Source: Adineta steineri
Taxonomy: Eukaryota
Direction of reading: 5' to 3'
Length of the DNA: 64,000 nt
Assembly: GCA_905250115.1 (NCBI GenBank)
Contig: CAJNOI010000163.1
Coordinates: 59,707-123,706, forward strand
In this document: one piece after another, positions 10,723 through 54,047 of the stretch
Layout: each line of letters begins with the position of its first letter
Position numbering within the stretch: position 1 is the stretch's first letter
Notes under the pieces: generated by a model
Database searches by the model: none
What the model saw: the letters and a program-made list of their open reading frames with translations, nothing else
Told to the model about the DNA's origin: nothing
Program-made: the position numbers and the translations under genes

Positions 10723-11604
10723 TTATGAATATTTAAGTGATAAAAATGGTTCTATAGCCTCAGCAATTAATTCATGTACATTAGTTGTAAGATGAAAATT
10801 ATCTATAAAAACATATTTTGTTGGATCTTGACATAATTCTATCACTGTTGTAGTATTAAATTGTTTCCAACATCGATCGATAGTATTTGAAAACTTCATC
10901 CTAGATTGATTTGCAATGATTTTTGTCAGCAATGAATATGTATCAAATATTTGTATAGAACTTGTTGGATAAGATTTTTGTATTGTATTAAGATTTTCGA
11001 ATAGAATATTATTAGTTAGGATTGTCAATAAAGTAAAAAATATTGATTGATGAAATCTATTGACATATGGAAGTGTTTGTACAGGTGTTTGATTAAATAT
11101 AAGAAAATGTTTTGCACCAACAGCTAATAAATCTTTAATTGAATTCATTAAACTATGAATAATTTGTATTGGTGTTACAGTATGATCGAAAACAAAATCA
11201 TTTCCACTAGCCCATATAATGTGGAGTGTACGATTATGAGTAATTGTATTTTTATCAGTATGATTTAAATACATTTGAACTTGTTGACGAATACCTGGAA
11301 CGGCAATTGTGTTTAGAAGTGTATGACCTTTTATAAAATTATTATCCGTTGTTGCACTACCATAAGCATAATTAAATTTCTGTTTGATATCTAATCTATC
11401 AACCCAATTAGGACCATTAGAAAATCGACCTTGATAATAAGGTGGAACAGTAGGCCATACATAATTTGTTAATTTATAAGTATTTCCAGTATCTGAATAT
11501 GAATCACCAAAGATAACTATGTTATTATAACGATTTGTATTAAACTTTATTTTTAAAGTTAATGCTGAAGATATCAAGAAAATATGAATAAGGAAAATCG
11601 ACAT
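10723..11604 (-). CDS. Secreted GDSL/SGNH-family lipase or esterase, intronless.
   Basis: The real ATG maps to + strand 11602-11604 (the ORF-track start at 11625 is GTG). Signal peptide MSIFLIHIFLISSALT, then the GDSL block IVIFGDSYSDTGN, and a C-terminal DNFHLT catalytic D-x-x-H. Confidence 0.7.
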   Translation of the reverse strand: MSIFLIHIFLISSALTLKIKFNTNRYNNIVIFGDSYSDTGNTYKLTNYVWPTVPPYYQGRFSNGPNWVDRLDIKQKFNYAYGSATTDNNFIKGHTLLNTIAVPGIRQQVQMYLNHTDKNTITHNRTLHIIWASGNDFVFDHTVTPIQIIHSLMNSIKDLLAVGAKHFLIFNQTPVQTLPYVNRFHQSIFFTLLTILTNNILFENLNTIQKSYPTSSIQIFDTYSLLTKIIANQSRMKFSNTIDRCWKQFNTTTVIELCQDPTKYVFIDNFHLTTNVHELIAEAIEPFLSLKYS

Positions 11605-12592
11605 ATGATAAAATATTATGCACACGTAACCTTATTTTTCTTTACTGAAGCAACATGTTTATTTTACAATGTTTACTCAAGTGTATCAATTGATTTATAG
11701 TGGAGAAAAAAGAAGCAATCAGAACAAAATTTTATTTTATGTTTATTGGATATTATAATCTATCTATTTAAAGGATAGACAGATTATTTTAAATATATCG
11801 GTGGAATAATCTTTCTATATAATCGTAGTTTGAAATTATTTTACTATTTATATTTTTTGAATTGAAATAAAGATAATTGTCAAGTAACGCTTGTGTCTTG
11901 ACTTGTATTTAAATCTTTCTCGTCGAAGAAATGGACTATTAAATGATTCAAATCGATATAGAAACTCGATTCCTCACTCTCAGATACTTTGTATGAAGGC
12001 TTATGGACTTGATTGATTGTTTTTTTTTATATTTTATTCAACGAATTAAACTATTTTCATTGTGGAAAAAAACACAGTCTAATAAAATTTTACATATATA
12101 TTCACATTTATAAATCGATTTATTTAATCAAGTTTTAAACAAATACAGTTTATATTCTTATATTGAATTGCGTGCTTCAAGGTGATTCATTTCATAGATA
12201 AGAAATAAATGTAAAATATTATTGGATTACATCATAACAACGGTTTATCCAATCATTAAATACAACAATTACTATTAGTTTTATTACTTTGTGCCTGTTT
12301 CTTTATCCTAGTTTGGATCTATTATAACTTTTTTGTATTGTTTTCAATGTAGTCTTCTATCATATTTTATGTTATATATTTTTTCTTTTTCTTTCGTTCT
12401 CTCATTACACTTTATCAAGCAAGTATAAAAGAATGATTAATACTATTTGACCCACTCTATATGATATATAAGAAATGGTAAGTGCAACAAACTGTAATAA
12501 AAAAAATTATTCTCATATTAATGTATATTTTATTAATACAGATAAATAGGAATATCTTTTAGATTAGTCGAGTATTTTTTTGAATCTAAATC

Positions 12593-14036
12593 ATGGGTAA
12601 ATTACGTATAGCAATTATTGGTGCTGGTCCATGTGGTCTTGCACAATTATCAGCATTTAAACAAGCTGAACAAGAACAACAAGTTGAATTAGTCTGTTTC
12701 GACAGACAATCGGATTGGGGTGGTCTATGGTTGTATACATCAAAAATTGGTATCGATGTTAATGGTGAACCAGTTCATTCAAGCATGTATCGTCAGTAAG
12801 TAATAAATATATATGGAAAATTTCAGACAAAATAAAATTATCTTTAGTCTTTGGTCAAACAATCCAAAAGAATTATTTGAATATCCTGACTATACATTCT
12901 ATAATCATTTTGGTTGTTATCTACCATCACATTTACCACGTGTTCTTATCTATGATTATTTTATTGGTAGAGCAAAAGCAAATAATCTTCGACAATTTAT
13001 TCGTTTCAATACAGCTGTTCGTCATGTTGATTTTAATGATGATAAAAAAGAATTTTCTGTTGAAATTGAAGATTTAAATACAAATTCATTTGAATGTTTA
13101 TCATTCGATCGTGTTATTGTAGCCAATGGTCATTACCATATGCCGAATATGATTGCTATTGATGGATTAGATCAATATCCAGGTCGAGTTATTCATTCAC
13201 ATGAATTTCGTGGTGCAGATGAATTTAAAAATCAGAATTTATTAATTATTGGTAGTAGTTTTTCTGCAGATGATATTGCTGTACAATGTTATAAATTTGG
13301 TGCTAAATCAATAACAGTGAGTTGTCGTCAAAAACCAATAGGATATAAATGGCCTTCTGCAATAAAAGATGCAGCAATGATTACTCGTATAGATGGTCAA
13401 ACAGCTCATTTTAATGATGGCTCAAGCGTTGATAATATTGATGCAATTATAATTTGTACTGGTTATCGTCATTCATATCCATTTATGTCTAGACGATTAT
13501 GTTTACAAGCTGATGTTACTGAATTTGTTCCAGCGAATCTTTATAAAAGTATTTTTTGGATTGATCAACCATTTGTTGCATATTTAGGTGCTCCGAGACA
13601 AATTTTTTCATTTCCGTTATTTGATGGACAAGCTGCACTTGTACGTGATGTTTTTCTTGGTCATATTAAATTACCAGATAAAAATGAAATGAAAATCGAT
13701 GTAGACAAATGGCGAACAAGAGAAAAATCTATGTCTCCTACTGATTTCTTTGCTATGGTTGATCTTCAAACTGATTATATGAAGGATATTATTAACTTAT
13801 TACATACTTATAAAAATAATCAATCTTTATTAACATTTGATTTTGATAAAGGTGGTGAGATGACAAAGAGATTTCTAACAAATAAAGTAAATGATATACT
13901 TCATTATCGTGATGCATCTTATGAATCGATTGTTGATACAAACCACAGTAAAACCATTGATATTTGCAAATCATGGATTGAAAATATGGATGATTCAATG
14001 GAAAACTTATTAAATGATTATCGAAAGATATTATAA
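12593..14036 (+). CDS. Flavin-containing monooxygenase (FMO), two exons (12593 to about 12791 and about 12855 to 14036).
   Basis: FAD Rossmann motif [16 protein letters not shown]…SSMYR at the exon 1 end, then after a roughly 62-bp intron [17 protein letters not shown] (FMO-identifying region), NADPH motif [14 protein letters not shown], and FATGY-like [11 protein letters not shown]. Confidence 0.75.
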
Positions 14037-28442: not shown

Positions 28443-31400
28443 AATGCCTGCTACGTTTCTTACATTACCGGTAGAGCTTGTCTACCGAATTCTGGATCAT
28501 CAGAGTGATTTAACAATAGTATGCTCAATGCAAAATGTGTGCCAACGGTTCAATGCAATTCTCAGCAGTTACCATCGATACCAAGTAAACTTTGTTTAAT
28601 CATGATTATCTATCTTTCTGCTATTTCTGAATTGCGTTCCATTCTTACCATCTATATCTCTGAGAAAATGCCTGAATAAAATAATGACGAAGCATATTAA
28701 TTCATCAAGCATTAATCTCCCCAAACGATTTATATACAGCACCATAGAAATAGAAAAGAAAAATGAAAATATACGTAAAAATCATATTCTCTTTACTTCT
28801 CTAAAAACTCCACTGTTTCCGCATCGTTTTTACCCGTCCATGTGCAATATTTAGAAGAAAAAGGAAAGGAGAAATTGTCTTTACCTGCATACCTGGACTA
28901 TTATTCATATATCTTTCGCGTTGAAACGAACTGTTTGGTAAAGACTGAAGGCTTCACAGGAGTTGTAGCTGAAATAAATCAATTATCCTTGATCAGGTTG
29001 ATTTTGCAGCCAGAAGATATCTAATATTATATAACATACTACTAGTTTTTTTCATTTCATATGAGCACATATTATTTCAGACAGGCTATACTTCGATTTA
29101 ATTAGTGGCATATGCCAGAATAAAGAAATGTGATAACACTCAGAGAGCCTACATATAGATCTTAAACATTTACACAGTTACGAACAGCATGAGCTCCTAC
29201 GATTCTATTAATTGTTTAATATCTAAATCATGTATAAACCTCTCTACGAACAATTAATCATCAAAAAACAGAGATGAGATAACCTTTTACAGATATGCGA
29301 CAAGATTTACTGAAGAACTACTAAACTGTAAATGATATACTCATAGCTAAATATTCAAATAAAACTTTGTTTACTTGATCACTAAATTCAACATCTATAT
29401 TGAAATATCTCAGTTTTCAATAGCAACACAGAACAATTCTTTGGCGCATAACATGACAGAAACTTCTCTGATCTGACTTGCTTAATTGAATATGATTGGA
29501 CATTCAGAAAGAATACTTGAATATATCGAGCAATACTTGATCATAAGCTTTATCTACAGTAACCCGATTGATTCCTTCTCTCTCATAATATTTTCCTTAA
29601 TTTTTCAACTCTCCAAGGTGGAGATTTGCAAAAAGTGAAATACCGAACTGTTCTATCCTCATCTCTTTCCACAAGATTTAACCAATGTCTCATACAGCAA
29701 TATGATAACTCTTCGTCCCTCTTTATCTATTCAATCTACTAATCTATATTGTTTCATACAGACACTCACCAACTTAAATCTCTTCTTCAATGAGCTCGGA
29801 GATCTTGGAGCACAGCAGCTAGCAAGTGCGTTACGAAATAATAAGGTAGATATCATTTTGTTCCACATCTATTTCATATATCCATCTGTAATTTTTCATG
29901 CAGACACTCACTATATTAAATCTTATATACAATCAAATCGGACATGCAGGAGCACAACATTTAGCAGATGGGTTACGAACTAATATGGTAAACATGATTC
30001 ATTTCCTCATCTATTTCATATATACATCTGCACTTTTTCATACAGACACTTACTACATTAGACCTCGCCCGCAATCACATCAAACATGTCGGAGCACGGC
30101 ATCTAGCAGATGCATTACGAACTAATACAGTAAATATCATTCTTTTCCTCATCTATTTCATATATACACCCGCACTTTTTCATGCAGACACTTAGCACAT
30201 TAAATCTCTGCCACAATGAAATCGGAGCTGTTGGAGCACAGCATCTAGCAAATGCATTACGAAATAATAAGGTAAATATTATTCCGTTCCACATCTATTT
30301 CATATATGTATCTGCACGTTTTTATACAGACACTTAACACATTAAATATTGAGAGCAATCAAATCGGAGATGTCGGTGCACAGCATCTAGCAGATACATT
30401 ACGAAATAATAAGGTAAGTATCATTCTGTTCCAGATCTATGTCATCTACACTTCTTCATGCAGACACTTATCACATTAAATCTTTGGAGCAATCAAATCG
30501 GAGATGTTGGAGCACAGCATCTAGCAGATGCATTACGAAATAATACAGTAAATAGCATTCTCTTTCTCATGTATTTCATACATTCATCTGGACTTTTTCA
30601 TGCAGACACTTACTAGCGTAGATCTCGGCAGCAATCAAATTAGAGATGTTGGAGCACAGCATCTAGCCGATGCCTTACAAAATAATACGGTAATTACCAT
30701 TGTCTTTCTCATCTACTTTATATATTCATCTACGCTTTTTCATACAGGCACTTACCACATTAAATCTTCGCAGCAATCATATCGGACATGTAGGAGCACA
30801 GGATCTAGCAAATGTATTACGAAATAATAAAGTAATTATCATTGTCTTGCTCATCTATCTTATATATCTATCTGCAATTTTTTATGCAGACACTTAGCAC
30901 ATTAAATCTCTACCACAATGAAATCGGAGCTGTTGGAGCACAGCATCTAGCAAATGCATTACGAAATAATAAGGTAAATATTATTCCGTTCCTCATCTAT
31001 TTCATATATCCATCTGCACTTTTTCACTCAGATACTTACGACATTAGATGTCGGCGACAATAAAATCGGATATGCAGGAGTACAGCATCTAGCAGATGCA
31101 TTACGAAATAATACGGTAAAAATCAGTATCTTGCTCATCTATTTTATATATCTATCTGCACTTTTTCATGCAGTCACTTACTAGGTTAGATCTCGCCAGC
31201 AATCAAATTAGAGATATTGGAGCACAGCATCTAGCCGATGCCTTACAAAATAATACGGTAATTACCATTGTCTTTCTCATCTACTTTATATATTCGTCTG
31301 CACTTTTTCATACAGACACTTAGCACATTAAATCTCGACCACGATGAAATCACAGATGTTGGAGTACAGCATCTAGCAAATGCATTACGAAATAATAAGG

Positions 31401-32270
31401 TAATTATCATTGTCTTGCTCATCTATTTCTTGTAACCATATGCGCATTTTGATGCAGACACCTATCACATTAAGTCTCGCGTGGAATAAAATCGGAGCTG
31501 TTGGAGCACAGTATCTAGCAGATGAATTACGAGATAATAAGGTAAATATCATTATATGCTTCGTCAATCTCATATATCCATGCGTACTTTGTCATACAGA
31601 CACTTACCACATTACATCTATCTGGGAATAGAATTGGAGATGTTGGAGCACAGCATCTAGCCGATGCCTTACAAAATAATACGGTAATTACCATTGTCTT
31701 TCTCATCTACTTTATATATTCGTCTGCACTTTTTCATACAGACACTTAGCACATTAAATCTCGACCACGATGAAATCACAGATGTTGGAGTACAGCATCT
31801 AGCAAATGCATTACGAAATAATAAGGTAATTATCATTGTCTTGCTCATCTATTTCTTGTAACCATATGCGCATTTTGATGCAGACACCTATCACATTAAG
31901 TCTCGCGTGGAATAAAATCGGAGCTGTTGGAGCACAGTATCTAGCAGATGAATTACGAGATAATAAGGTAAATATCATTATATGCTTCGTCAATCTCATA
32001 TATCCATGCGTACTTTGTCATACAGACACTTACCACATTACATCTATCTGGGAATAGAATTGGAGATGTTGGAGCACAGCATCTAGCCGATGCCTTACAA
32101 AATAATACGGTAATTACCATTGTCTTTCTCATCTATTTTATATATCCATTTGCACTTTTTCTTGCAGACACTTACCACATTAGATCTCGCGTACAATAAA
32201 ATCGGAGAGAAACTTGAGGGTGAAATCAATGAGTTCATTGTACAGAACAAGAAAGTGTCAAAGATGTGAA
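28443..32270 (+). CDS. F-box / RNI-type leucine-rich-repeat protein. Its LRR region is encoded by about 18 tandem 84-bp exons, each followed by a 58-bp intron.
   Basis: Exon 1 MPATFLTLPVELVYRILDHQSDLTIVCSMQNVCQRFNAILSSYHRYQ|gtaaac is an F-box. From 29761 each exon reads TLTxLNLxxNxIGDVGAQHLADALRNNK (RNI LRR) in phase 0, and each intron is gtaa…atctatttcatatatccatctgcactttttcatgcag. The last exon ends …YNKIGEKLEGEINEFIVQNKKVSKM stop (32270). The exons between 28587 and 29700 are unresolved. Confidence 0.6.
29761..32200 (+). repeat. Tandem array of 142-bp units (84-bp LRR exon plus 58-bp intron), about 18 copies, with a 100% identical 426-bp (3-unit) tandem duplication at about 31217-32124.
   Basis: Unit starts at 29761, 29904, … 30606, 30748, 30890, … 31458, … 31842. 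ORF pairs 31385..31573 / 31811..31999 and 31410..31631 / 31836..32057 are identical and offset by exactly 426 bp. Confidence 0.85.
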
Positions 32271-32773
32271 TGTTGATATCGACGATATACGGATTACTAC
32301 TAGAAAACTATTGATGCATTTATAAATAATTTTTTTTTGTTCTGTGTTATCGTAATCAAATATAAATAAAACTACTTTGCGGTGATATTTGTGATAGTTG
32401 ATGGAACTTTATATCATACTACAAAATTATGCATAATTGAATCTCGTTATTTGAAAAGGGACATATGTTAGAGTACCACAGTGCGTTACGGAATTTCATT
32501 TTTTTCACTTGTTGAATCCATATCTCTTCGATATCAAAAGAAATGTCTTGCAATTTTCATCAGAAATTCAGACTGTTAAGTTCTATTACCAGTAAATAAT
32601 TCATGAGGTTCCATGTTTTAGAAACAGAGTTATGGAAGAAACACTAATTCATCAGTGAAAATTTCAACAAAATCTTTGATATTTTGTTTTTTTCATTTGA
32701 TTCGATGTGAATAGTTTTATAATTTTCTAAATCATCTATTTGCAAAGATCAACTTGTTAAAGAGGGTGTTTTT

Positions 32774-33592: not shown

Positions 33593-34576
33593 ATGGCTAG
33601 TATTACATTGAAAGACATTGCTTTCGTCAATAACACAGCAACGAATGAAACATTATCATATCCAGTCAGCGGAATAGTTTTATCAAAAATGACTCGTTTT
33701 TGGATTCTTCTTATTTTTGAAGTTCCATCACTTTTCTGTTGTGTTTTATTACTTTATTATTTATGCTTTGATCGGATACAAAGAAATGCACTCAATAACC
33801 ATGTCATCATTGCTATTCTCATCTTTAATTTTTTCTTGCTGATTATTGATATTCCAAATTATCTTACACTTTTTCGTCTTCACTATGTCTGGCCATCAAC
33901 ACCAATTAACTGTTATATCTGGTTAGTTGTAGATATAGCTGGCTATTATGGATTAGGTATACTTATGGCATGGGCTTCGATCGAAAGGCACATTTTAGTA
34001 TTTCATCATCAATGGCTTAATACTTTAAAGAAACGTATTTTTATTCATTATATTCCATTAGCTGCAATTATTTTGTATCTGTCTATTTTCTACACTATAC
34101 TTATTTTCTTTGTGCCTTGTGATCATACATTAAATTACGCAGCATATACTTGTGGAGGTGCATGTGCGTATGAAATAGCAGCTCTTTCGATGTATGATGG
34201 ATTCGTCAATGGTGATATACCCTGTTTTGTAACTACAATATTCAACATTTTACTGGTTATTCGTGTTATCAAACAAAAACAACGTCTTCATCAACATGTA
34301 CAATGGCGTAAACATCGAAGAATGATTATACAACTGCTCGCGTGTGCCGGACTCTTTATTGTATTCAATCTTCCTCTGGTATGCATTTATGTCGCTCAAG
34401 CATTCGGTGTACCGTATGGTGCAACTGGTCAATTTGAGTATTTTGTTTATTTTCTGGCTTATTTCATTATGCTTTGGATGCCTTTCGTGTGTCTTGGATC
34501 ATCACCAGAAATCTTATCAAAAATAAAGAGAATAATGAAACCACAACGTATCAACACTACAATTACTCCACATTAA
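33593..34576 (+). CDS. Intronless seven-transmembrane receptor-like protein (rhodopsin-class-like GPCR, orphan), 327 aa.
   Basis: Seven hydrophobic segments. ASIERHILVF sits at the TM3 end (E/DRY-like ERH). Basic ICL3 KQKQRLHQHVQWRKHRR. NLPLV…WMPFVCL in TM6/7. Confidence 0.5.
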   Translation: MASITLKDIAFVNNTATNETLSYPVSGIVLSKMTRFWILLIFEVPSLFCCVLLLYYLCFDRIQRNALNNHVIIAILIFNFFLLIIDIPNYLTLFRLHYVWPSTPINCYIWLVVDIAGYYGLGILMAWASIERHILVFHHQWLNTLKKRIFIHYIPLAAIILYLSIFYTILIFFVPCDHTLNYAAYTCGGACAYEIAALSMYDGFVNGDIPCFVTTIFNILLVIRVIKQKQRLHQHVQWRKHRRMIIQLLACAGLFIVFNLPLVCIYVAQAFGVPYGATGQFEYFVYFLAYFIMLWMPFVCLGSSPEILSKIKRIMKPQRINTTITPH

Positions 34577-41506: not shown

Positions 41507-44500
41507 ATGAAACAATCTACAATATCTAATTTAGTTTTATCACCATTTAATGATATAACAATTGTACTTGAGCTTGGCCGTGAAAAAAGTTTCAAAGCTA
41601 AACAAGAAATAATCAACTATTTACGAGAACAACGAGCACACATTTCATATATTCTTACAGCTAGTGTATGTATAATTTTCTTCTTCTATATCATACATAC
41701 CTTAGTTTTTTCAAGACTGATTATGTTTTGACAACCGAGAATGTTGATAGTTATAAGATACGTCGTGCTAAACAACTCGGCATACCAATAATCAATATTG
41801 AATATGTGTATGAATATCGTCGCTTACCATCTGGTCAATCATTAATTGATATTAACAAATTTATTATCAAATCCGTTGAAGATCAAGAAAATTTTATAAA
41901 AACTGGAACTATTCCTGTTGCAGGTAATAATCAGGTTTCCCTCTTCTAAAAATCATGTCATATATCCTTATTCGATTAGAATCTCGAGTAAATTCGATCA
42001 AAATCAATAAATTCGATCTAAATAAAATCAAGTTATGGAATTCAGACGATGCGAATTTACCTCGTTTCGATGATTCAACACATTGTGAAATTGGCAAATG
42101 GGCTATTTTTAAAGTTTATTTCTATAGCTATTCTTTTCTTATATTTCTATTGTTCATAACAGGAAATCAACGATAATTCAAATGTATTTTTCGTTCTTGA
42201 ACTTCAAATTATTCCTGAACAATACTATGATCAAACAACGAGTGATTATCGACTACGATTTCGATATGAAAAACAACAACAAGATAAAAATATATTAATA
42301 CAATATGCATTTGGAAATGATCCAAATGAACTACAACAATTATTTGCATCATATTATTATCGATTATCATCAATGCCACGTATAATACGAATTCGTGACA
42401 AATTACCTAATCAATTCGGTTCAAAATTATTATTACGTGTAAGTAAATAACATTTAATGAAAAGAATAAAACAATTGTGATCTCAGTCTTTATTTACTCA
42501 TCGTATTGATACACAAATACTTGATGAAAATGTCTGTCAATTAATTGAATCATTATGGTTAGAATCAATTGGTGATCTAAATAAAATTTTGAGTATATCA
42601 CCTGAATCAATCACTCTTAAAACGGTATATTTATATTTATATTTATTTTTCTATATATCGAAATTAGTTTAATATAGATCATTGAAGCAGAAGCTGTATT
42701 GCTGAAACTCAAATCAACTCAAGATCCTGCTGCGGCACTTCATTTCTATTCACTTATACCACATCGACCACAATATACTATTGATCTCATAAAAAATCGT
42801 CGAGTATTGATTGAGAAAATCGATTTATGTCAAGTATATTTCATTCCTTTTTATTCATTTCACTTGATCTTTTATCTATTCAGATGCTTCGAGATATGCT
42901 TACAGTTAATGAATTAACTAATTGGAATGTTAAAGCACCCATTGAAGCTAAATACCGAGCATTGAAATGCTATATAGAAACAATAGCAAGTTCAACATCT
43001 GAATATAAAAATATTGTTAAACTTATTCAATCATCAACAGATAGGTATGAAAATTTGAATTAACTCAACTTCAAGTTTTTTTGTTTACTATAGTGGTGAA
43101 CAAATTATTATTCATAATATATTCAATGTGACTAAACAAACTGATGTACTTAATTTTTGTAATACATTATCAAATCAACGACAACTATTTCATGGATCGA
43201 AATATACGAATTTTCTTGGAATTCTTTCACGGTAAAATAATCAATTCATTCTTTAATATTTCTATTTATGATTATGTATATATATTTAGTGGTTTAGTCA
43301 TGCCTAAAATGGTAATTGAAGAATTAGGTGTTGCACGTACTGATATTGGTTGTCTTGGTTATGGAATTTACTTTTCTGATTCTGTTTCTACCTCTCTTAA
43401 ATATACGTCGCCAAGCACAGTACGACCAGGACGTCGATTATTATGCATTTGTCAAGTAGCATTAGGTGAATCAGCTAATTATTATTCATTTTCATCAACG
43501 CTCAACAAGCCTCCGGATGGTTTCCACAGTACACACGGAGTTAAACGAACAGAAGATAATCATTCAATGTTTACTGTAAGCATAATTATAGTATCGATTC
43601 CTATAATCACAAATATTATTTAGGATGATGAATATGTAATCTATCAATTAGATCAACAACTTTTACACTACATTGTCGAAGTATCATGGATACCGAATGA
43701 TATTGTCAATATTGAATTAGAACGATTACCTATTGTTCATCATCAACAAGATGTATTAAAATTAAGTGAACATGGTAATGATGATTGTGTTTTTATTAGA
43801 TTATATATTTTATATATTCTAGTCGAAGTTCCAATGACAATTGATGATGATGTTATTGAAATTGCGGAACAAGATTATGGTTTGATATGTCCATCATCAG
43901 GCAAACTTGTTCCATTAAAATCCTACCATATTCGTGCTCAAATTGTTGATGTTACAGTTGAAGTAATTCAATCTGTAGTGTAAAAAAAATGTAAATTCAT
44001 CATTTTTCTATTTAATGCAAAGGTTGTTCTCTATCAAGTCTATTATAACATGAGTTCTACACCAATCGAAGCAAAATATGTATTTCCTTTAGATGAAAAT
44101 TCAACTGTATGTGGTTTTGAAGCACATATCAATAATAAAATCATCAAAGGTGTTGTTAAAGAGAAAGAACAAGCTAAACAAGAATATCGAGAAGCAATTG
44201 AAAAAGGTCATGGTGCTTATTTAATGCATCAAGAACAAGCACAAGTATTTAGTGTTGCTGTAGGTAATTTACCAGCAAATACTGAAGTTATTATCAAAAT
44301 TACATATGTTGCTGAATTAGAAATTGAAAATGGTGATATCATTTTTCGTTTTCCATCTAAAATGACTTCATGGCAATCGAAACAAGCAATTGAAACTCGA
44401 GATCAATCATCGCTACGATCAATTGGTATTGTTGATGAAAAAGTTGAATTTAGTTTTAAAGCATCAATACGTATGCCATATAATATAATAAAATTATTTT

Positions 44501-50778: not shown

Positions 50779-52329
50779 TTAAACTTTAGTTAAAATCCAA
50801 CGTAGGGCATCGTTTTGAACAAAATCGACGATGCCGACGTTGGATGTATCATGAAGAGCAAATACACGCCACCATGCATTTCGAGGTCGGAAGCGGAATA
50901 CATTGTTTCCGTACGAAGAAAGTACCCATTCCTGATTAACATTGCTTGACCAATTGTTTGTTTGAACTCCACCAGTTTTTGCCGTTACATTGTAAGCGGT
51001 AAGAGCACTGGCGTTGGCATTTTGTGACGATAATCGATAAGTACCATTATCAAGCCAACTAATATTCCATTTCTGATGTGCACTATTGCATCCTCCACTT
51101 TCTAATTGAACTCTACTGACGTTGCCATTGACATAAGTACTAAGACATTTATCTGGTTGTGATTTCGGCGCGAGACGATAAATGCCATCGGGAAGAACAC
51201 GAGCTAATTCTTCTTGCATTTGCATATAGGCCGGTTTCAGCTGATAATTCGAGTCACTAGGTAGTGCAGCTCCTTCCGTATTGTTATAAAAAGCAGGAAC
51301 CCAACTGTATCGATCGGTGAAACCCCAAGTGATTAGTGCACGACATCTTGGAGAAAAGTGTAATGCATACTTCAAGAGAGCACGATAGAGACGGCCTTGT
51401 CTCTCTAAATCATTCGGATCTCGAGGATTTCCTGCATTTATCGGAATAGCTACATCTAACTCAGTTACCATGAAATCAAAGTCATTGTCTATTAATCGTT
51501 GAGCATTCTGGTAATGTTGATCACCAGGATTGACTGTTCGTGAGATTCGTATATGCCATTGCATACCAACACCGTGAATGGTAGCACCTTGTGATCTCAC
51601 CCATTTGATTAGTTCAAGTACTCTACTTGATTTTGATCCCATATCTTCATTATTATAATCATTGTAATATAATTGAGCCTGAGGATCAGCTTGATGAGCA
51701 AACATAAAAGCATATTTAACAAAATCTTGGCCCAATTTTCGATACCAAAAGCAATCACGCAAATTAAATGGACGACTATTATTCTTCGAATCCTCGACGG
51801 CTTCATTTACTACATCCCACCAAAGTACTTTGCTTCGGTAGCGACCGACTACTGCATGAATGTAATCACTCAACAATAACTTGACTTTGTCGGATGATAA
51901 TGACGATTCCTGTTTCAATAACCAGTCTGGCGTATATTTGTCTTGAGCCCACACTAGAGTATGTCCTCGTATTTGCATTCCATTCTGTTGAGCCCATCCT
52001 GTGGAATTTGGTGTCGAGCCCAAAAGCCAATCACAGTCGATCCAACTGTAATTGTTTATACCACGCCACAGTTTCATAGGTTTAAAATCGTTCTCCGGCT
52101 CAATCACATGATAGTTTTTTTTTATAAAGGAGTTGTACTGGCCACCGTCGATATCCTTTCGTAAATTGTTAATGCTAGCTGCTGTGCCAAATAAAACGCC
52201 GCGAAGAGCTGAAGATGCTCGAAGTCCAAATGGATCTATTGCCCTAACAGGTGCACTATTCATCAAGTAGTACCATAGTAGTATCGTCGTCCACTTCCTG
52301 ATGAACGATGATGAGAAATGGCACTGCAT
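50779..52329 (-). CDS. Secreted GH10 endo-1,4-beta-xylanase with a C-terminal ricin-B lectin (CBM13) domain, intronless, 516 aa.
   Basis: GH10 catalytic signatures WDVVNEAVED (acid/base Glu) and MVTELDVAIP (nucleophile Glu). HTLVW and ITWGFTD are also present. C-terminal QxW repeats: AHQKWNISWLDNGTYRL, NQEWVLSSYGNNVFRFR, NDALRWIL. N-terminal signal peptide. The ORF is GC-richer than its flanks. Confidence 0.85.
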   Translation of the reverse strand: MQCHFSSSFIRKWTTILLWYYLMNSAPVRAIDPFGLRASSALRGVLFGTAASINNLRKDIDGGQYNSFIKKNYHVIEPENDFKPMKLWRGINNYSWIDCDWLLGSTPNSTGWAQQNGMQIRGHTLVWAQDKYTPDWLLKQESSLSSDKVKLLLSDYIHAVVGRYRSKVLWWDVVNEAVEDSKNNSRPFNLRDCFWYRKLGQDFVKYAFMFAHQADPQAQLYYNDYNNEDMGSKSSRVLELIKWVRSQGATIHGVGMQWHIRISRTVNPGDQHYQNAQRLIDNDFDFMVTELDVAIPINAGNPRDPNDLERQGRLYRALLKYALHFSPRCRALITWGFTDRYSWVPAFYNNTEGAALPSDSNYQLKPAYMQMQEELARVLPDGIYRLAPKSQPDKCLSTYVNGNVSRVQLESGGCNSAHQKWNISWLDNGTYRLSSQNANASALTAYNVTAKTGGVQTNNWSSNVNQEWVLSSYGNNVFRFRPRNAWWRVFALHDTSNVGIVDFVQNDALRWILTKV

Positions 52330-52985: not shown

Positions 52986-54047
52986 TTATGAGAGGTTGGA
53001 CATTTTTCTTTTAGAAATTCCACGTGCATCACATTCGCAGATATTTAAAAGAATATCTATAGCACGAGAGTCAGAATTTGTAATGATTATGTCTTGATAA
53101 GTATCATCATTAAAATCATAAACACCAATATCAGATCCATAACGGACCATCTTATCCGATAATATGTTTTGCGTCTCAAAATAGCCGTCCCCATATCCAA
53201 GTAGCACATCTATACCATATGGCCTACCCGCAGCAGCAATGTCTAAATGATCATCACAATTAAAATCACCTACAACAACTGTAGATGGTATGCGATTAGA
53301 TTTCATGACAAAGTTATTCTTGACGGTGAAAAATCCATTTCTATATTTAGACAACACAGTGACTATGTTTATGCGTTCATCAGAGACAACGACGTCTGGT
53401 TGAGCATCGCCGTCAAAATCACCGCTTACACTATGGTGTGGATCAGAACCCAGGAAAGTATAAGATCGCTTCTGTACTTCAAAAGTTCCATTACCGCACC
53501 CAAGAAATATACCAACATTTACAGCTCTACTATTGGTGACAGCAATATCTACGTGTCCATCGCTATTAAAGTCACTAACAGTCAATGATTCAGGCTCACT
53601 TTGATATCCAGTAGAAAACATCAGCTGCGGTGAAAAAGTGTCATTAGCATTTCCAAAAAACACACAGACATTAGAATTAACAGTATTAATGACAGCAATA
53701 TCTGAATAATTGTCATGATTGAAGTCGACTACAACGATGTCATCGGGTATACATTTCGTTGTCCCTAATATTATATTCCGGACTCTAAAAGTTCCGTTAC
53801 TATTTCCAAATAGAATGTTTACATAGTTTGCATCGCTAATGGTGAATACGAGATCGGCTCGATTATCATTATTGAAATCACCAACTTTCATATGTGTCAT
53901 CCATAAAAAACTTCCTTTTTGAAAAATATTTTCTTTTGTAAAACGTCCGTTAGCATTCCCAGACAGTATGATCACACTTTCGTGATAGTTAGAAAAAACC
54001 ATAATATCAAGCCGACTGTCATCGTTGAAATCAGCAACAGCAAACAT
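52986..54047 (-). CDS. FG-GAP/VCBS-repeat (integrin-alpha-like beta-propeller) protein. The main ORF is intronless and there is a possible short upstream signal-peptide exon.
   Basis: At least 7 repeats of the form DFN(N/H/S)D.hhDIhV…h(F/L)GNGNGTF, for example VGDFNNDNRADLVFTISDANYVNILFGNSNGTF, VVDFNHDNYSDIAVINTVNSNVCVFFGNANDTF, VSDFNSDGHVDIAVTNSRAVNVGIFLGCGNGTF. An aatag acceptor lies just upstream of the first ATG in frame. Confidence 0.7.
   Translation of the reverse strand: MFAVADFNDDSRLDIMVFSNYHESVIILSGNANGRFTKENIFQKGSFLWMTHMKVGDFNNDNRADLVFTISDANYVNILFGNSNGTFRVRNIILGTTKCIPDDIVVVDFNHDNYSDIAVINTVNSNVCVFFGNANDTFSPQLMFSTGYQSEPESLTVSDFNSDGHVDIAVTNSRAVNVGIFLGCGNGTFEVQKRSYTFLGSDPHHSVSGDFDGDAQPDVVVSDERINIVTVLSKYRNGFFTVKNNFVMKSNRIPSTVVVGDFNCDDHLDIAAAGRPYGIDVLLGYGDGYFETQNILSDKMVRYGSDIGVYDFNDDTYQDIIITNSDSRAIDILLNICECDARGISKRKMSNLS

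What the first reader, a model, noticed from the sequence alone, without database searches (positions are those of the whole stretch)
29761..32200. LRR domain encoded as a tandem array of about 18 exon+intron cassettes with a strict 142-bp period
Each 84-bp exon encodes one 28-residue RNI-type LRR (TLTxLNLxxNxIGDVGAQHLADALRNNK) in phase 0. Each is followed by a roughly 58-bp intron that is itself conserved between units (…atctatttcatatatccatctgcactttttcatgcag). The whole array therefore looks like a 142-bp satellite, yet every unit keeps GT…AG and the reading frame. This architecture allows repeat-number change by unequal crossing-over without frame loss, a recipe for rapidly evolving binding surfaces that is typical of immune or recognition receptors. 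The N-terminus is an F-box, so the protein is a candidate SCF substrate adaptor with a hypervariable LRR. A naive repeat finder would report this as a tandem repeat.
Basis: seen in the sequence. Interest (0 to 1): 0.7.

Follow-up and report, generated by a model that had tools for sequence, protein, structure and literature searches.

The report
Rotifer F-box gene with exon-cassette LRRs
This is a real, intact gene of the bdelloid rotifer Adineta steineri in which each leucine-rich repeat is its own 84-base exon followed by a tiny 58-base intron. The exon+intron unit has been copied in tandem 17 times, a gene design already known from ciliates, brown algae and vertebrate immune genes.

Summary
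TRF finds one array at 29752-32208 with period 142 and 17.4 copies. It resolves into 17 open 84-nt phase-0 exons, each flanked by AG|…|GT, plus a terminal exon that starts an 18th repeat. Sixteen introns are 58 nt and one is 50 nt, so the period is not strictly 142.

An F-box-like exon (28444-28584) lies 1,177 nt upstream. Three A. steineri paralogs share the same layout of F-box exon, long first intron and 84+56..58 cassettes. One public gene model splices exactly at these junctions.

The introns look conserved because the cassettes are young. Intron divergence (p 0.22) matches synonymous divergence (pS 0.25). An old Rotaria array keeps the 84-nt exons but its introns have drifted apart.

A perfect 426-nt (3-cassette) duplication with a 67-nt crossover tract shows unequal homologous recombination directly. 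Paralogs carry about 5, 7, 17 and 21 cassettes. At the observed divergence, chance would keep the ORFs and splice sites intact with P about 2e-7, so this is not a pseudogene.

dN/dS is at most 1, so positive selection is not shown. An immune role is untested.

The design is known from Tetrahymena 90-bp exon arrays, brown-algal ROCO genes and vertebrate NLR/RNH1. This is a new member of a known kind, and of moderate interest.

The parts
28444..28584 (+). Exon 1: start codon plus a 47-residue F-box-like domain (MPATFLTLPVELVYRILDHQSDLTIVCSMQNVCQRFNAILSSYHRYQ). It ends in phase 0 and the donor GT is at 28585.
   Evidence: ORF list. Pfam F-box-like E=2.5e-4 and F-box E=2.2e-3, both below the gathering score. 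It is 77% identical to exon 1 of paralog P0052, whose public model is named 'F-box domain-containing protein'.
28585..29761 (+). Intron 1, 1,177 nt (GTAAAC...ACAG), with no ORF in any forward frame. Its last ~45 nt resemble the 3' part of a cassette intron. 28720..29152 is a 433-nt stretch absent from the paralog L001.
   Evidence: Three-frame translation is full of stops. Collinear similarity patches with intron 1 of L001. Paralogs also have a long intron 1, 753 nt in L001 and 992 nt in L004. No TIR or TSD was found.
29762..32167 (+). Array of 17 exon+intron cassettes. Each has an 84-nt phase-0 exon encoding one 28-residue RI-type LRR, followed by a 58-nt GT..AG intron (50 nt in unit 5). Exons start at 29762, 29904, 30046, 30188, 30330, 30464, 30606, 30748, 30890, 31032, 31174, 31316, 31458, 31600, 31742, 31884 and 32026.
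   Evidence: TRF, exon scan, intron table, nhmmer, Pfam LRR_6 E=3e-80.
30414..30463 (+). The one short intron (50 nt instead of 58). It makes unit 5 134 nt long and breaks the strict period.
31217..32135 (+). Recent in-register duplication. The sequence has perfect period 426 (3 cassettes) over 919 nt, which is 2 x 426 plus a 67-nt crossover tract. The tract (TTGGAGCACAGCATCTAGCCGATGCCTTACAAAATAATACG|GTAATTACCATTGTCTTTCTCATCTA) spans an exon/intron junction.
   Evidence: 31217..31709 is identical to 31643..32135. The 67-nt tract is present three times, at 31217, 31643 and 32069.
32168..32269 (+). Terminal exon. It holds the first ~13 residues of an 18th LRR, then a non-repeat tail (…GEKLEGEINEFIVQNKKVSKM) and the TGA stop.
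   Evidence: A homologous terminal exon with its own stop is present in paralog L001. blastn similarity continues to 32378.
32365..32370 (+). AATAAA, a candidate polyadenylation signal 96 nt after the stop codon.
   Evidence: A similar ATAAATAAAAC is present after the stop in L001.

Best explanation
What it is. Window 28444..32269 (+) is an intact protein-coding gene of the bdelloid rotifer Adineta steineri. It has 19 exons and encodes a 556-residue protein. The protein consists of a 47-residue F-box-like head, 17 complete ribonuclease-inhibitor-type LRRs plus a partial 18th, and a short tail.

How the array is built. Each LRR (one beta-strand, loop and helix) is exactly one 84-nt exon in phase 0. 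Each exon is followed by a near-minimal 58-nt intron. Because the exon is symmetrical and a multiple of three, any whole number of cassettes can be gained or lost without breaking the frame.

How it grew. The array grew by unequal homologous recombination between misaligned cassettes. The introns were copied along with the exons. They look conserved only because most cassettes are young (dS about 0.3), not because the introns have a function of their own. Their similarity does lengthen the identical tracts on which in-register recombination can act.

Which steps are shown and which are inferred.
- Shown: the anatomy, the intactness under selection, the recombination footprint, the variation in cassette number between paralogs, and the RI-type fold.
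- Inferred from family knowledge: the F-box docks on Skp1 in an SCF ubiquitin ligase, and the concave LRR face (variable positions 8, 9 and 11) selects the substrate.
- The identity of the substrate and any immune role are unknown.
For: Anatomy.

Organism: the 450-aa ORF at 3367-4716(-) is 100% identical over full length to an A. steineri protein.

Splicing pattern:
- The public model P0052 of the closest paralog (locus L001) reads ...SYDRYQ|TITTLNL... and joins seven 28-residue units exactly at the predicted junctions.
- Other Adineta and Rotaria models have the same RYQ|TLT junction.
- The layout of F-box exon, long intron 1 and 84+56..58 cassettes recurs in L001 and L004.
- An array of 21 cassettes sits behind a different N-terminus in L002.

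Selection: at the observed 13-14% divergence from consensus, random mutation would leave all 14 non-identical units without a stop codon with P about 1e-3. It would leave all GT/AG intact with P about 3e-4, and both together with P about 2e-7. No exon has an indel. The only length change is in an intron.

Young cassettes rather than constrained introns:
- Between-unit identity is 78.8% in exons, 79.0% at third codon positions and 78.0% in introns.
- pS is 0.25 against an intron p-distance of 0.22.
- The Rotaria locus L003 keeps 84-nt phase-0 exons and 54-58-nt introns, but its introns are near the shuffled baseline (0.595 against 0.517).

Recombination:
- There is a perfect 426-nt period over 919 nt with a 67-nt shared tract.
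- Units 4 and 9 are 99% identical in exons, and units 7 and 11 are 94%.
- The 5'-edge units 1-3 are the most divergent, as expected for arrays homogenised by unequal exchange.

Fold: Pfam LRR_6 3e-80, RI 1.7e-34. The AF2 model of P0052 has pLDDT 83-98 across the LRRs and matches NOD2 (rmsd 1.4 A), NLRP3 and RI.

F-box: 8 of 8 family N-termini hit Pfam F-box, the best at 1.5e-8. The only weak PDB hits are FBXL2 and cyclin F.
Against: - No transcript data could be consulted. Splicing is inferred from signals, frame and gene models of paralogs, and those models are themselves automatic predictions.
- This sequence's own F-box score is below Pfam's cut-offs. The F-box part of the AF2 model is of low confidence (pLDDT about 52).
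- Intron 1 is about 20 times longer than the cassette introns.
- dN/dS of 0.62 even in the helix positions points to rather weak constraint on the protein sequence.
- The perfect 426-nt duplication could be an assembly error rather than biology.
- No public protein identical to this gene was found, so no outside annotation confirms it.
Confidence: 0.78

Rival explanations
1. The array is a decaying pseudogene or a non-coding 142-bp satellite that merely descends from an LRR gene. On this view the open frames and splice signals are leftovers.
For: Codon positions 1, 2 and 3 are almost equally divergent between units (78.9, 77.6 and 80.5% identity). dN/dS is 0.78. No public protein model matches the gene. 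TRF reports it as a plain tandem repeat.
Against: All 17 exons are open and exactly 84 nt long. All cassette-intron dinucleotides (GT and AG of each) are intact. Simulation gives P about 2e-7 for that outcome under neutral decay at the observed divergence. Amino-acid variation is patterned, with positions 8, 9 and 11 variable and the L/N/G/A scaffold nearly invariant. The start codon, terminal exon, stop and AATAAA are all in place.
Confidence: 0.04
2. The cassette introns are conserved because they are functional, for example as splicing enhancers for very short introns, as small-RNA precursors or as recombination signals, and not because the copies are young.
For: The intron consensus is recognisably similar in three different A. 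steineri genes, including one with a different N-terminus (gtaaNtatcatt…tcatcta…ctgcactttttcatNNag). Window-versus-L002 intron identity (0.68) is higher than third-codon-position identity (0.60).
Against: Within the array, intron identity equals third-position identity (0.78 against 0.79), and intron p-distance is about equal to pS. The 0.68 figure comes from gapped global alignment, whose shuffled baseline is already 0.52, so it cannot be compared with ungapped third positions. In the older Rotaria array the same exon design persists with introns near that baseline. There is no Rfam family in the window.
Confidence: 0.07
3. The F-box exon does not belong to this transcript. The LRR array would then be an LRR-only gene, or would use another first exon, and 28444-28584 would be a separate or dead exon.
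For: The gap is 1,177 nt, against 50-58 nt for all other introns. The F-box scores are sub-threshold. An in-frame ATG at 29702 opens directly into the first LRR exon (ORF 29702..29983).
Against: The same layout is present in three A. steineri paralogs, with intron 1 of 753, 992 and 1,177 nt. The F-box exon ends in phase 0 with a GTAAAC donor. The 5' flank, exon 1 and both ends of intron 1 are collinear with paralog L001. Annotated models in Adineta and Rotaria join RYQ directly to TLT.
Confidence: 0.08
4. The last three cassettes (the perfect 426-nt duplicate) are an assembly artefact. The true array would have 14 complete cassettes.
For: There is zero divergence over 493 nt, while other cassette pairs differ by about 20%. 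Tandem arrays are prone to mis-assembly.
Against: The junction has the exact form expected of in-register homologous exchange, 2 x 426 plus a 67-nt shared tract, and it keeps the reading frame. Paralogs show that cassette number really does vary. No reads were available to test this.
Confidence: 0.12

Closest known systems
[quoted passage not shown] 2019, PMC6564038)
   Same: Each LRR unit is one exon of fixed length. Exon+intron units repeat in tandem inside the gene and are detectable at nucleotide level, so repeat finders mask them. Intron length is characteristic of each array. Exon number varies widely between paralogs. Growth is attributed to unequal crossing-over. Ka/Ks is below 1. Older arrays keep the exon design but lose the intron similarity.
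   Different: Exons here are 84 nt in phase 0, not 90 nt in phase 2. Introns are about 58 nt, not about 250 nt. The LRRs are RI-type 28-residue repeats. The host is an animal. An F-box head is present. No retrotransposon association was seen here. The origin is almost certainly independent.
Brown-algal LRR-ROCO genes with 72-bp LRR exons (Zambounis et al. 2012; PMC11378527)
   Same: One LRR per exon, symmetrical intron phase, exon duplication and shuffling, and a proposed role as diversifying receptors.
   Different: Those genes have 72-nt phase-2 exons and 23-24-residue LRRs joined to a ROC-COR GTPase. Positive selection and alternative splicing are reported there and are not shown here.
Vertebrate RI-type LRR genes: RNH1, NLRP/NOD family (Hoss et al. 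2019, PMC6642158) and zebrafish NLR-B30.2 (Howe et al. 2016, PMC4852459)
   Same: They share the same LRR class (RI-type, 28-29 residues) and strict exon modularity that keeps the frame. Zebrafish LRRs are each on a single exon and vary in number. The nearest solved folds are NOD2, NLRP3 and RI.
   Different: Human NLRP exons are 171 nt, encode two repeats, and have their border inside the beta-strand. Here one repeat equals one exon, with the border in the helix-to-strand loop. There is no NACHT domain here. Vertebrate introns are long and not similar between units.
F-box/LRR substrate receptors of SCF ligases (FBXL family, e.g. Skp2, FBXL2) and Ralstonia GALA/RipG F-box-LRR effectors
   Same: They share the N-terminal F-box followed directly by an LRR solenoid. 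FBXL2 is one of only two weak PDB sequence hits of the N-terminal profile. The RipG4 (GALA) LRR domain is among the best sequence and fold matches to the LRR part.
   Different: FBXL proteins use 26-residue cysteine-containing LRRs, not RI-type ones. GALA proteins are bacterial effectors with 24-residue repeats. Skp1 binding is untested here.
Expanded LRR multigene families of bdelloid rotifers (noted for Adineta vaga in Arkhipova et al. 2013, PMC3846280)
   Same: This gene belongs to that expansion. Hundreds of Adineta and Rotaria proteins with the same RI-type LRRs were hit.
   Different: Within the papers searchable here, I found no description of the cassette architecture, of array dynamics, or of the range of N-terminal heads (F-box, RING/B-box, kinase+U-box, ADP-ribosyltransferase).

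Membership tests
RI-type (ribonuclease-inhibitor-like) LRR proteins, Pfam LRR_6 / RNI-like | Tandem 28-29-residue repeats with LxxLxLxxN/CxL followed by an alpha-helix | tested here: met
   Pfam LRR_6 scores E=3e-80 (258 bits, cut-off 23.4) with 18 stretches. The repeat consensus is TLTTLNLSRNQIGDVGAQHLADALRNNT. Ribonuclease inhibitor in the PDB scores E=1.7e-34.
RI-type (ribonuclease-inhibitor-like) LRR proteins, Pfam LRR_6 / RNI-like | Curved beta/alpha solenoid fold | tested here: met
The AF2 model has pLDDT 83-98 over the LRRs, with a strand and a helix every 28 residues. Foldseek matches NOD2 5irn (rmsd 1.4 A over 209 columns), NLRP3 and RI 1dfj.
F-box proteins (SCF substrate receptors) | About 45-residue F-box motif recognised by Pfam F-box / F-box-like at the curated threshold | tested here: inconclusive
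   The window sequence scores 21.2 bits against cut-off 24.3 (F-box-like) and 18.3 against 20.5 (F-box). Both matches are in register and nearly full length. All 8 aligned family N-termini hit the models, the best at E=1.5e-8. LPxE, I16/L17 and VCxR are present.
F-box proteins (SCF substrate receptors) | Three-helix fold that binds Skp1 | not testable with these tools
   The AF2 model of the paralog gives three helices (10-18, 22-27, 29-42), but at pLDDT about 52. Binding needs an experiment.
FBXL subfamily (Skp2-like) | Cysteine-containing 26-residue LRRs after the F-box | tested here: not met
   The repeats are 28 residues long and of RI type. The protein is F-box plus LRR in layout but not an FBXL in the strict sense.
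NLR (NACHT-LRR) receptors | Central NACHT/NB-ARC NTPase domain | tested here: not met
   There is no NACHT or NB-ARC hit in Pfam for the 556-residue product. No ORF lies between the F-box exon and the array.
[quoted passage not shown] | Consecutive exons of exactly equal length, each one LRR, all introns in the same phase | tested here: met
   There are 17 consecutive 84-nt exons and all flanking introns are in phase 0.
[quoted passage not shown] | Exon+intron unit repeated in tandem and similar at nucleotide level, with unit number variable between paralogs | tested here: met
   TRF gives period 142 with 17.4 copies. Intron identity between units is 78%. Paralog arrays have 7.4, 21.3 and 4.8 copies.
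[quoted passage not shown] | Common descent with the Tetrahymena family (90-bp exon, phase 2, 30-residue repeat) | tested here: not met
   Exon length, intron phase and LRR class all differ. The resemblance is in architecture and mechanism, not in family membership (PMC6564038 compared).
Non-coding satellite / tandem repeat | No constraint on reading frame or splice signals across units | tested here: not met
   Simulation gives P about 2.4e-7 that all 14 non-identical units keep an open frame and GT/AG at the observed divergence.

The most novel reading that the evidence does not exclude
In bdelloid rotifers, RI-type LRR cassette arrays may form a large, fast-turnover intracellular recognition repertoire. 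The arrays are joined to interchangeable effector heads: F-box, RING/B-box, kinase+U-box and ADP-ribosyltransferase, all seen among the hits. Such a repertoire would be a ubiquitin-ligase-based counterpart of NLR immunity. Array length and specificity would be reshaped by in-register mitotic recombination, possibly during repair of desiccation-induced breaks, in a lineage without conventional sex. Automatic annotation largely misses the repertoire because the arrays are masked or truncated as tandem repeats.
Probability: 0.2. Interest if true: 0.65.

Novelty: new member of a known kind. Interest (0 to 1): 0.33.

Why it matters
The locus is a clean animal example of a gene that grows and shrinks by whole exon+intron cassettes. 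It carries a direct footprint of the last event: a perfect 3-cassette duplication with a 67-nt crossover tract across an exon/intron junction.

It shows that intron similarity inside such arrays is a clock for array age, not a sign of intron function.

There is also a practical lesson. Public gene models of this family are often truncated inside a cassette intron or fused to neighbouring genes, and this gene has no model at all. LRR repertoires of bdelloid rotifers are therefore probably under-counted.

None of this overturns current understanding. The design and its evolutionary mechanism are already described in ciliates, brown algae and vertebrates.

Tried and rejected
Look-ups that found nothing:
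- Exact-sequence look-ups were tried to recover the same or the allelic locus from public assemblies. Haplotypes or isolates could therefore not be compared for cassette number.
- Look-ups of an A. vaga member and a Rotaria socialis member also failed.
- A scan of metagenome contigs for the intron/exon junction motif found nothing.
- An Rfam scan of the whole window found nothing, so there is no known RNA in the introns.

Structure:
- AF2 on paralog P0052 without an alignment gave pLDDT below 50 for the F-box.
- With a 15-sequence alignment the LRRs became confident, but the F-box stayed near pLDDT 52. The F-box fold could not be confirmed structurally.
- A profile search of the PDB with the F-box alignment gave only E about 0.4 hits, to FBXL2 and cyclin F.

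Intron 1:
- I looked for hidden exons, repeats elsewhere, decayed cassettes (only a doubtful remnant at 29670-29761, E=0.57) and transposon ends. Nothing convincing turned up.

Positive selection:
- A Nei-Gojobori comparison among units gave dN/dS of 0.92 at the concave positions and 1.42 only for the three loop residues 13-15. That is too few sites to mean anything.

Positional orthology:
- I looked for one-to-one correspondence of cassettes between the window and L001. There is none; every unit is 70-86% identical to every other.

Full report
**1. What is in the sequence**

Tandem Repeats Finder reports a single large array in the window: 29752..32208, period 142, 17.4 copies, 77% matches. 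Reading the sequence and scanning for AG|84 nt|GT with an open frame resolves it into 17 exons of exactly 84 nt. They start at 29762, 29904, 30046, 30188, 30330, 30464, 30606, 30748, 30890, 31032, 31174, 31316, 31458, 31600, 31742, 31884 and 32026.

Each exon encodes 28 residues with consensus TLTTLNLSRNQIGDVGAQHLADALRNNT. All exons begin and end on codon boundaries. Every intervening sequence starts with GT and ends with AG. Sixteen of these introns are 58 nt. One, 30414..30463, is 50 nt, so the period is 142 in 16 of 17 units and not strictly constant.

A terminal exon (32168..32269) starts an 18th repeat, then diverges into a short tail and a TGA stop. AATAAA follows at 32365.

A profile of the unit finds no other significant copy in the 64 kb. 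It finds only a doubtful decayed remnant directly upstream, at 29670..29761 with E=0.57, and an equally weak hit (E=1) at 43741..43819.

**2. The 5' end**

The only F-box-like sequence is the ORF starting at 28444. It reads MPATFLTLPVELVYRILDHQSDLTIVCSMQNVCQRFNAILSSYHRYQ and is followed by GTAAAC. Joining 28584 to 29762 gives a continuous 556-residue product.

The implied intron 1 is 1,177 nt, an outlier, and has stops in all forward frames. Three lines of evidence support the join.
- The closest homolog is the A. steineri protein P0052, named 'F-box domain-containing protein'. It reads …SYDRYQ|TITTLNLRWYEIRG…, that is, the same junction.
- Its locus L001 has exon 1 at 8001..8141, a 753-nt intron 1, and seven 84+58 cassettes.
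- A third paralog, L004, has an F-box exon, a 992-nt intron 1, and 84+56/57 cassettes.

The window and L001 are collinear at 73-78% identity across several regions: the 5' flank, exon 1, both ends of intron 1, the array and the 3' UTR. Their neighbouring genes differ, so these are paralogs and not alleles.

Short annotated proteins with the same RYQ|TLT junction occur in A. ricciae and in several Rotaria species.

**3. Organism**

A 450-residue ORF elsewhere in the window (3367..4716, minus strand) is 100% identical over its full length to an Adineta steineri protein. The best hits of the LRR protein are Adineta and Rotaria proteins. The window has about 30% GC.

**4. Is it a live gene?**

The units differ from their consensus at 13.9% of exon positions and 13.1% of intron positions. 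I placed the same number of random substitutions on the consensus unit and counted the outcomes.
- All 14 non-identical units stay free of stops with probability about 1e-3.
- All keep GT and AG with probability about 3e-4.
- Both hold together with probability about 2e-7.

That figure treats units as independent, which overstates it somewhat. No exon carries an indel.

Amino-acid variation is patterned. Positions 8, 9 and 11 of the repeat are the most variable, with entropy of 2.1-3.3 bits. The L, N, G and A scaffold positions are invariant or nearly so.

This pattern fits a gene under selection for an intact LRR solenoid. It does not fit a decaying array.

**5. Why the introns look conserved**

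Between units, identity is 78.8% in exons, 79.0% at third codon positions and 78.0% in introns. Nei-Gojobori pS is 0.25, against an intron p-distance of 0.22. The introns are therefore as diverged as silent sites.

The same exon design is present in the Rotaria magnacalcarata gene for P0014 (locus L003): 84 nt, phase 0, border between …N[TKA] and TL…, introns of 54-58 nt. There, however, introns of different units are near the shuffled baseline (0.595 against 0.517), and TRF sees no array.

So the one-LRR-per-exon design is old and shared by at least two bdelloid families. Nucleotide-level similarity of exon+intron units marks recently amplified arrays. Tetrahymena shows the same contrast between young and old LRR arrays (PMC6564038).

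**6. How the array changes**

31217..31709 is identical to 31643..32135. The stretch 31217..32135 thus has perfect period 426, which is three cassettes. Its length is 919 nt, or 2 x 426 + 67.

The 67-nt tract is present three times. It covers the last 41 nt of an exon and the first 26 nt of its intron. This is the footprint expected of unequal homologous exchange between cassettes three units apart. It adds 84 codons in frame.

Older events are also visible. Units 4 and 9 are 99% identical in exons, units 7 and 11 are 94%, and intron 11 equals intron 14. The 5'-edge units 1-3 are the most divergent, with mean 73-76% against 77-84% for the others. That is typical of arrays homogenised by unequal exchange.

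Cassette number differs among paralogs: 17 here, 7 in L001, about 5 in L004, and 21 in L002. L002 has a different, B-box/coiled-coil-like N-terminus.

I found no positional orthology between the units of the window and those of L001.

**7. What the protein is**

The LRRs are of ribonuclease-inhibitor type.
- Pfam LRR_6 scores E=3e-80 with 18 stretches.
- Among solved structures, sequence hits include RI-like proteins, LRRC34, RI, NLRP5/14, NOD2 and the Ralstonia GALA effector RipG4, which is identified.
- An AF2 model of paralog P0052, built with a 15-sequence alignment, is confident across the LRRs (pLDDT 83-98). It has one strand and one helix per 28 residues.
- That model superposes on NOD2 (rmsd 1.4 A), NLRP3 and RI.

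In the model each exon corresponds to one complete strand-loop-helix unit. The exon border falls in the helix-to-strand loop. In human NLRPs, by contrast, 171-nt exons hold two repeats and are split within the beta-strand (PMC6642158).

The F-box assignment rests on the following evidence.
- In-register but sub-threshold Pfam matches for this sequence (21.2 and 18.3 bits).
- Hits for all 8 aligned family members, with best E=1.5e-8.
- FBXL2 and cyclin F as the only, and weak, PDB profile hits.

The F-box fold itself stayed at low confidence.

It follows from family knowledge that the protein is probably an SCF substrate receptor. This was not tested. There is no NACHT domain. The repeats are not the 26-residue FBXL type.

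**8. Selection on the binding face**

dN/dS among units is 0.78 overall, 0.92 at the concave x positions (3, 4, 6, 8, 9, 11) and 0.62 in the helix. This points to weak constraint and diversification among repeats, but it gives no evidence of positive selection. The 'hypervariable receptor' and 'immune' readings remain hypotheses.

**9. Comparison with what is known**

Bdelloid LRR family expansion has been noted before (PMC3846280). The cassette architecture is well described elsewhere.
- Tetrahymena LRR genes have arrays of exactly 90-bp exons in phase 2. Their exon+intron repeats are about 347 bp, exon number varies, and growth is by unequal crossing-over (PMC6564038).
- Brown-algal ROCO genes have 72-bp phase-2 LRR exons (PMC11378527).
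- Zebrafish NLR-B30.2 genes have each LRR on a single exon (PMC4852459).
- Human NLR and RNH1 genes show strict LRR exon modularity (PMC6642158).

This case has the same kind of architecture and the same mechanism. It differs in several ways: it is in an animal with near-minimal introns, it uses an 84-nt phase-0 unit of the RI class, and it sits behind an F-box.

Within the searchable literature I found no description of this architecture in rotifers. That literature covers open-access papers only.

**10. Annotation**

Neither the full product nor its first 131 residues finds an identical or near-identical public protein. The best hit is P0052 at 67% over 44% of the query. Yet another gene of the same window is present at 100% identity.

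Models of paralogs are visibly damaged.
- P0247 ends …NNKVSHTFE, and P0246 and P0250 end similarly. All three read into a cassette intron.
- P0052 skips its terminal exon and is fused to a PDZ gene.
- P0009 stops before its array ends.

**11. Verdict**

The conserved introns are explained by recent amplification. The F-box/SCF role is probable and the immune role is speculative. It is a new member of a known kind and of moderate interest.

Noticed in passing
window 1721-3082 (+): An intronless 453-residue ORF whose C-terminus carries RI-type LRRs (Pfam LRR_6 E=2.9e-7). This is a second LRR gene in the window with a completely different gene structure: no cassettes and no F-box.
   Followed up: partly
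window 50779-52329 (-): A single-exon 516-residue glycoside hydrolase family 10 (xylanase) with a ricin-B lectin domain (Pfam GH10 E=1.7e-74). It is of a type usual in bacteria and fungi, so it is a candidate horizontally acquired gene, as is common in bdelloids.
   Followed up: no
window 3364-4716 (-), 5318-6076 (-), 10723-11625 (-), 12813-14036 (+), 52986-54047 (-): A run of intronless enzyme-like ORFs: ADP-ribosylglycohydrolase (hundreds of rotifer paralogs), pirin, GDSL lipase, FMO-like monooxygenase and an FG-GAP repeat protein. The window is gene-dense and rich in expanded or possibly foreign families.
   Followed up: partly
window 29153-29189 (intron 1) and L001 8287-8323: A 37-nt block inside the long first intron is 35/37 identical between the two paralogs, while the surrounding intron is 66-87% identical or unalignable. 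It also forms an imperfect inverted repeat with 29209-29228. Its meaning is unknown.
   Followed up: partly
window 28720-29152 (intron 1): A 433-nt stretch is present in the window but absent from the collinear intron of paralog L001. No terminal inverted repeats, target-site duplication or other copy in the window was found.
   Followed up: partly
window, the 3' ends of many cassette introns (e.g. 29898, 30182, 30458, 30600, 31168): Nine of the 17 cassette introns end in ...catgcag, which places an ATG in frame with the next exon. The ORF list therefore shows a series of 'MQTLT...' ORFs. An in-frame ATG at 29702 also opens into the first LRR exon. This is probably a by-product of the acceptor consensus, but it would allow LRR-only products from internal starts.
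   Followed up: no
L001 (A. steineri CAJNOE010000093.1) about 9889-9990; L004 6510-6650; L002 9617-10201: Public gene models of the family are truncated or fused. P0052 skips a terminal exon that has its own stop and continues into a PDZ gene. P0247 reads into a cassette intron although a fourth cassette follows. P0009 ends while its 141-bp array continues for about 4 more cassettes.
   Followed up: yes
proteins (e.g. P0002, P0005, P0008, P0031): The same RI-type LRR module in Adineta and Rotaria is joined to very different heads: F-box, RING+B-box, protein kinase+U-box, and NAD:arginine ADP-ribosyltransferase. The closest non-rotifer relatives are Mortierellaceae fungi and NACHT proteins of unnamed organisms. 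This hints at domain shuffling around a shared LRR cassette array.
   Followed up: no
window 33593-34576 (+): A single-exon 327-residue rhodopsin-like 7TM receptor ORF lies immediately downstream of the LRR gene (Pfam 7tm_1 E=1.1e-5, below the cut-off). It belongs to another family reported as expanded in bdelloids (PMC3846280).
   Followed up: no
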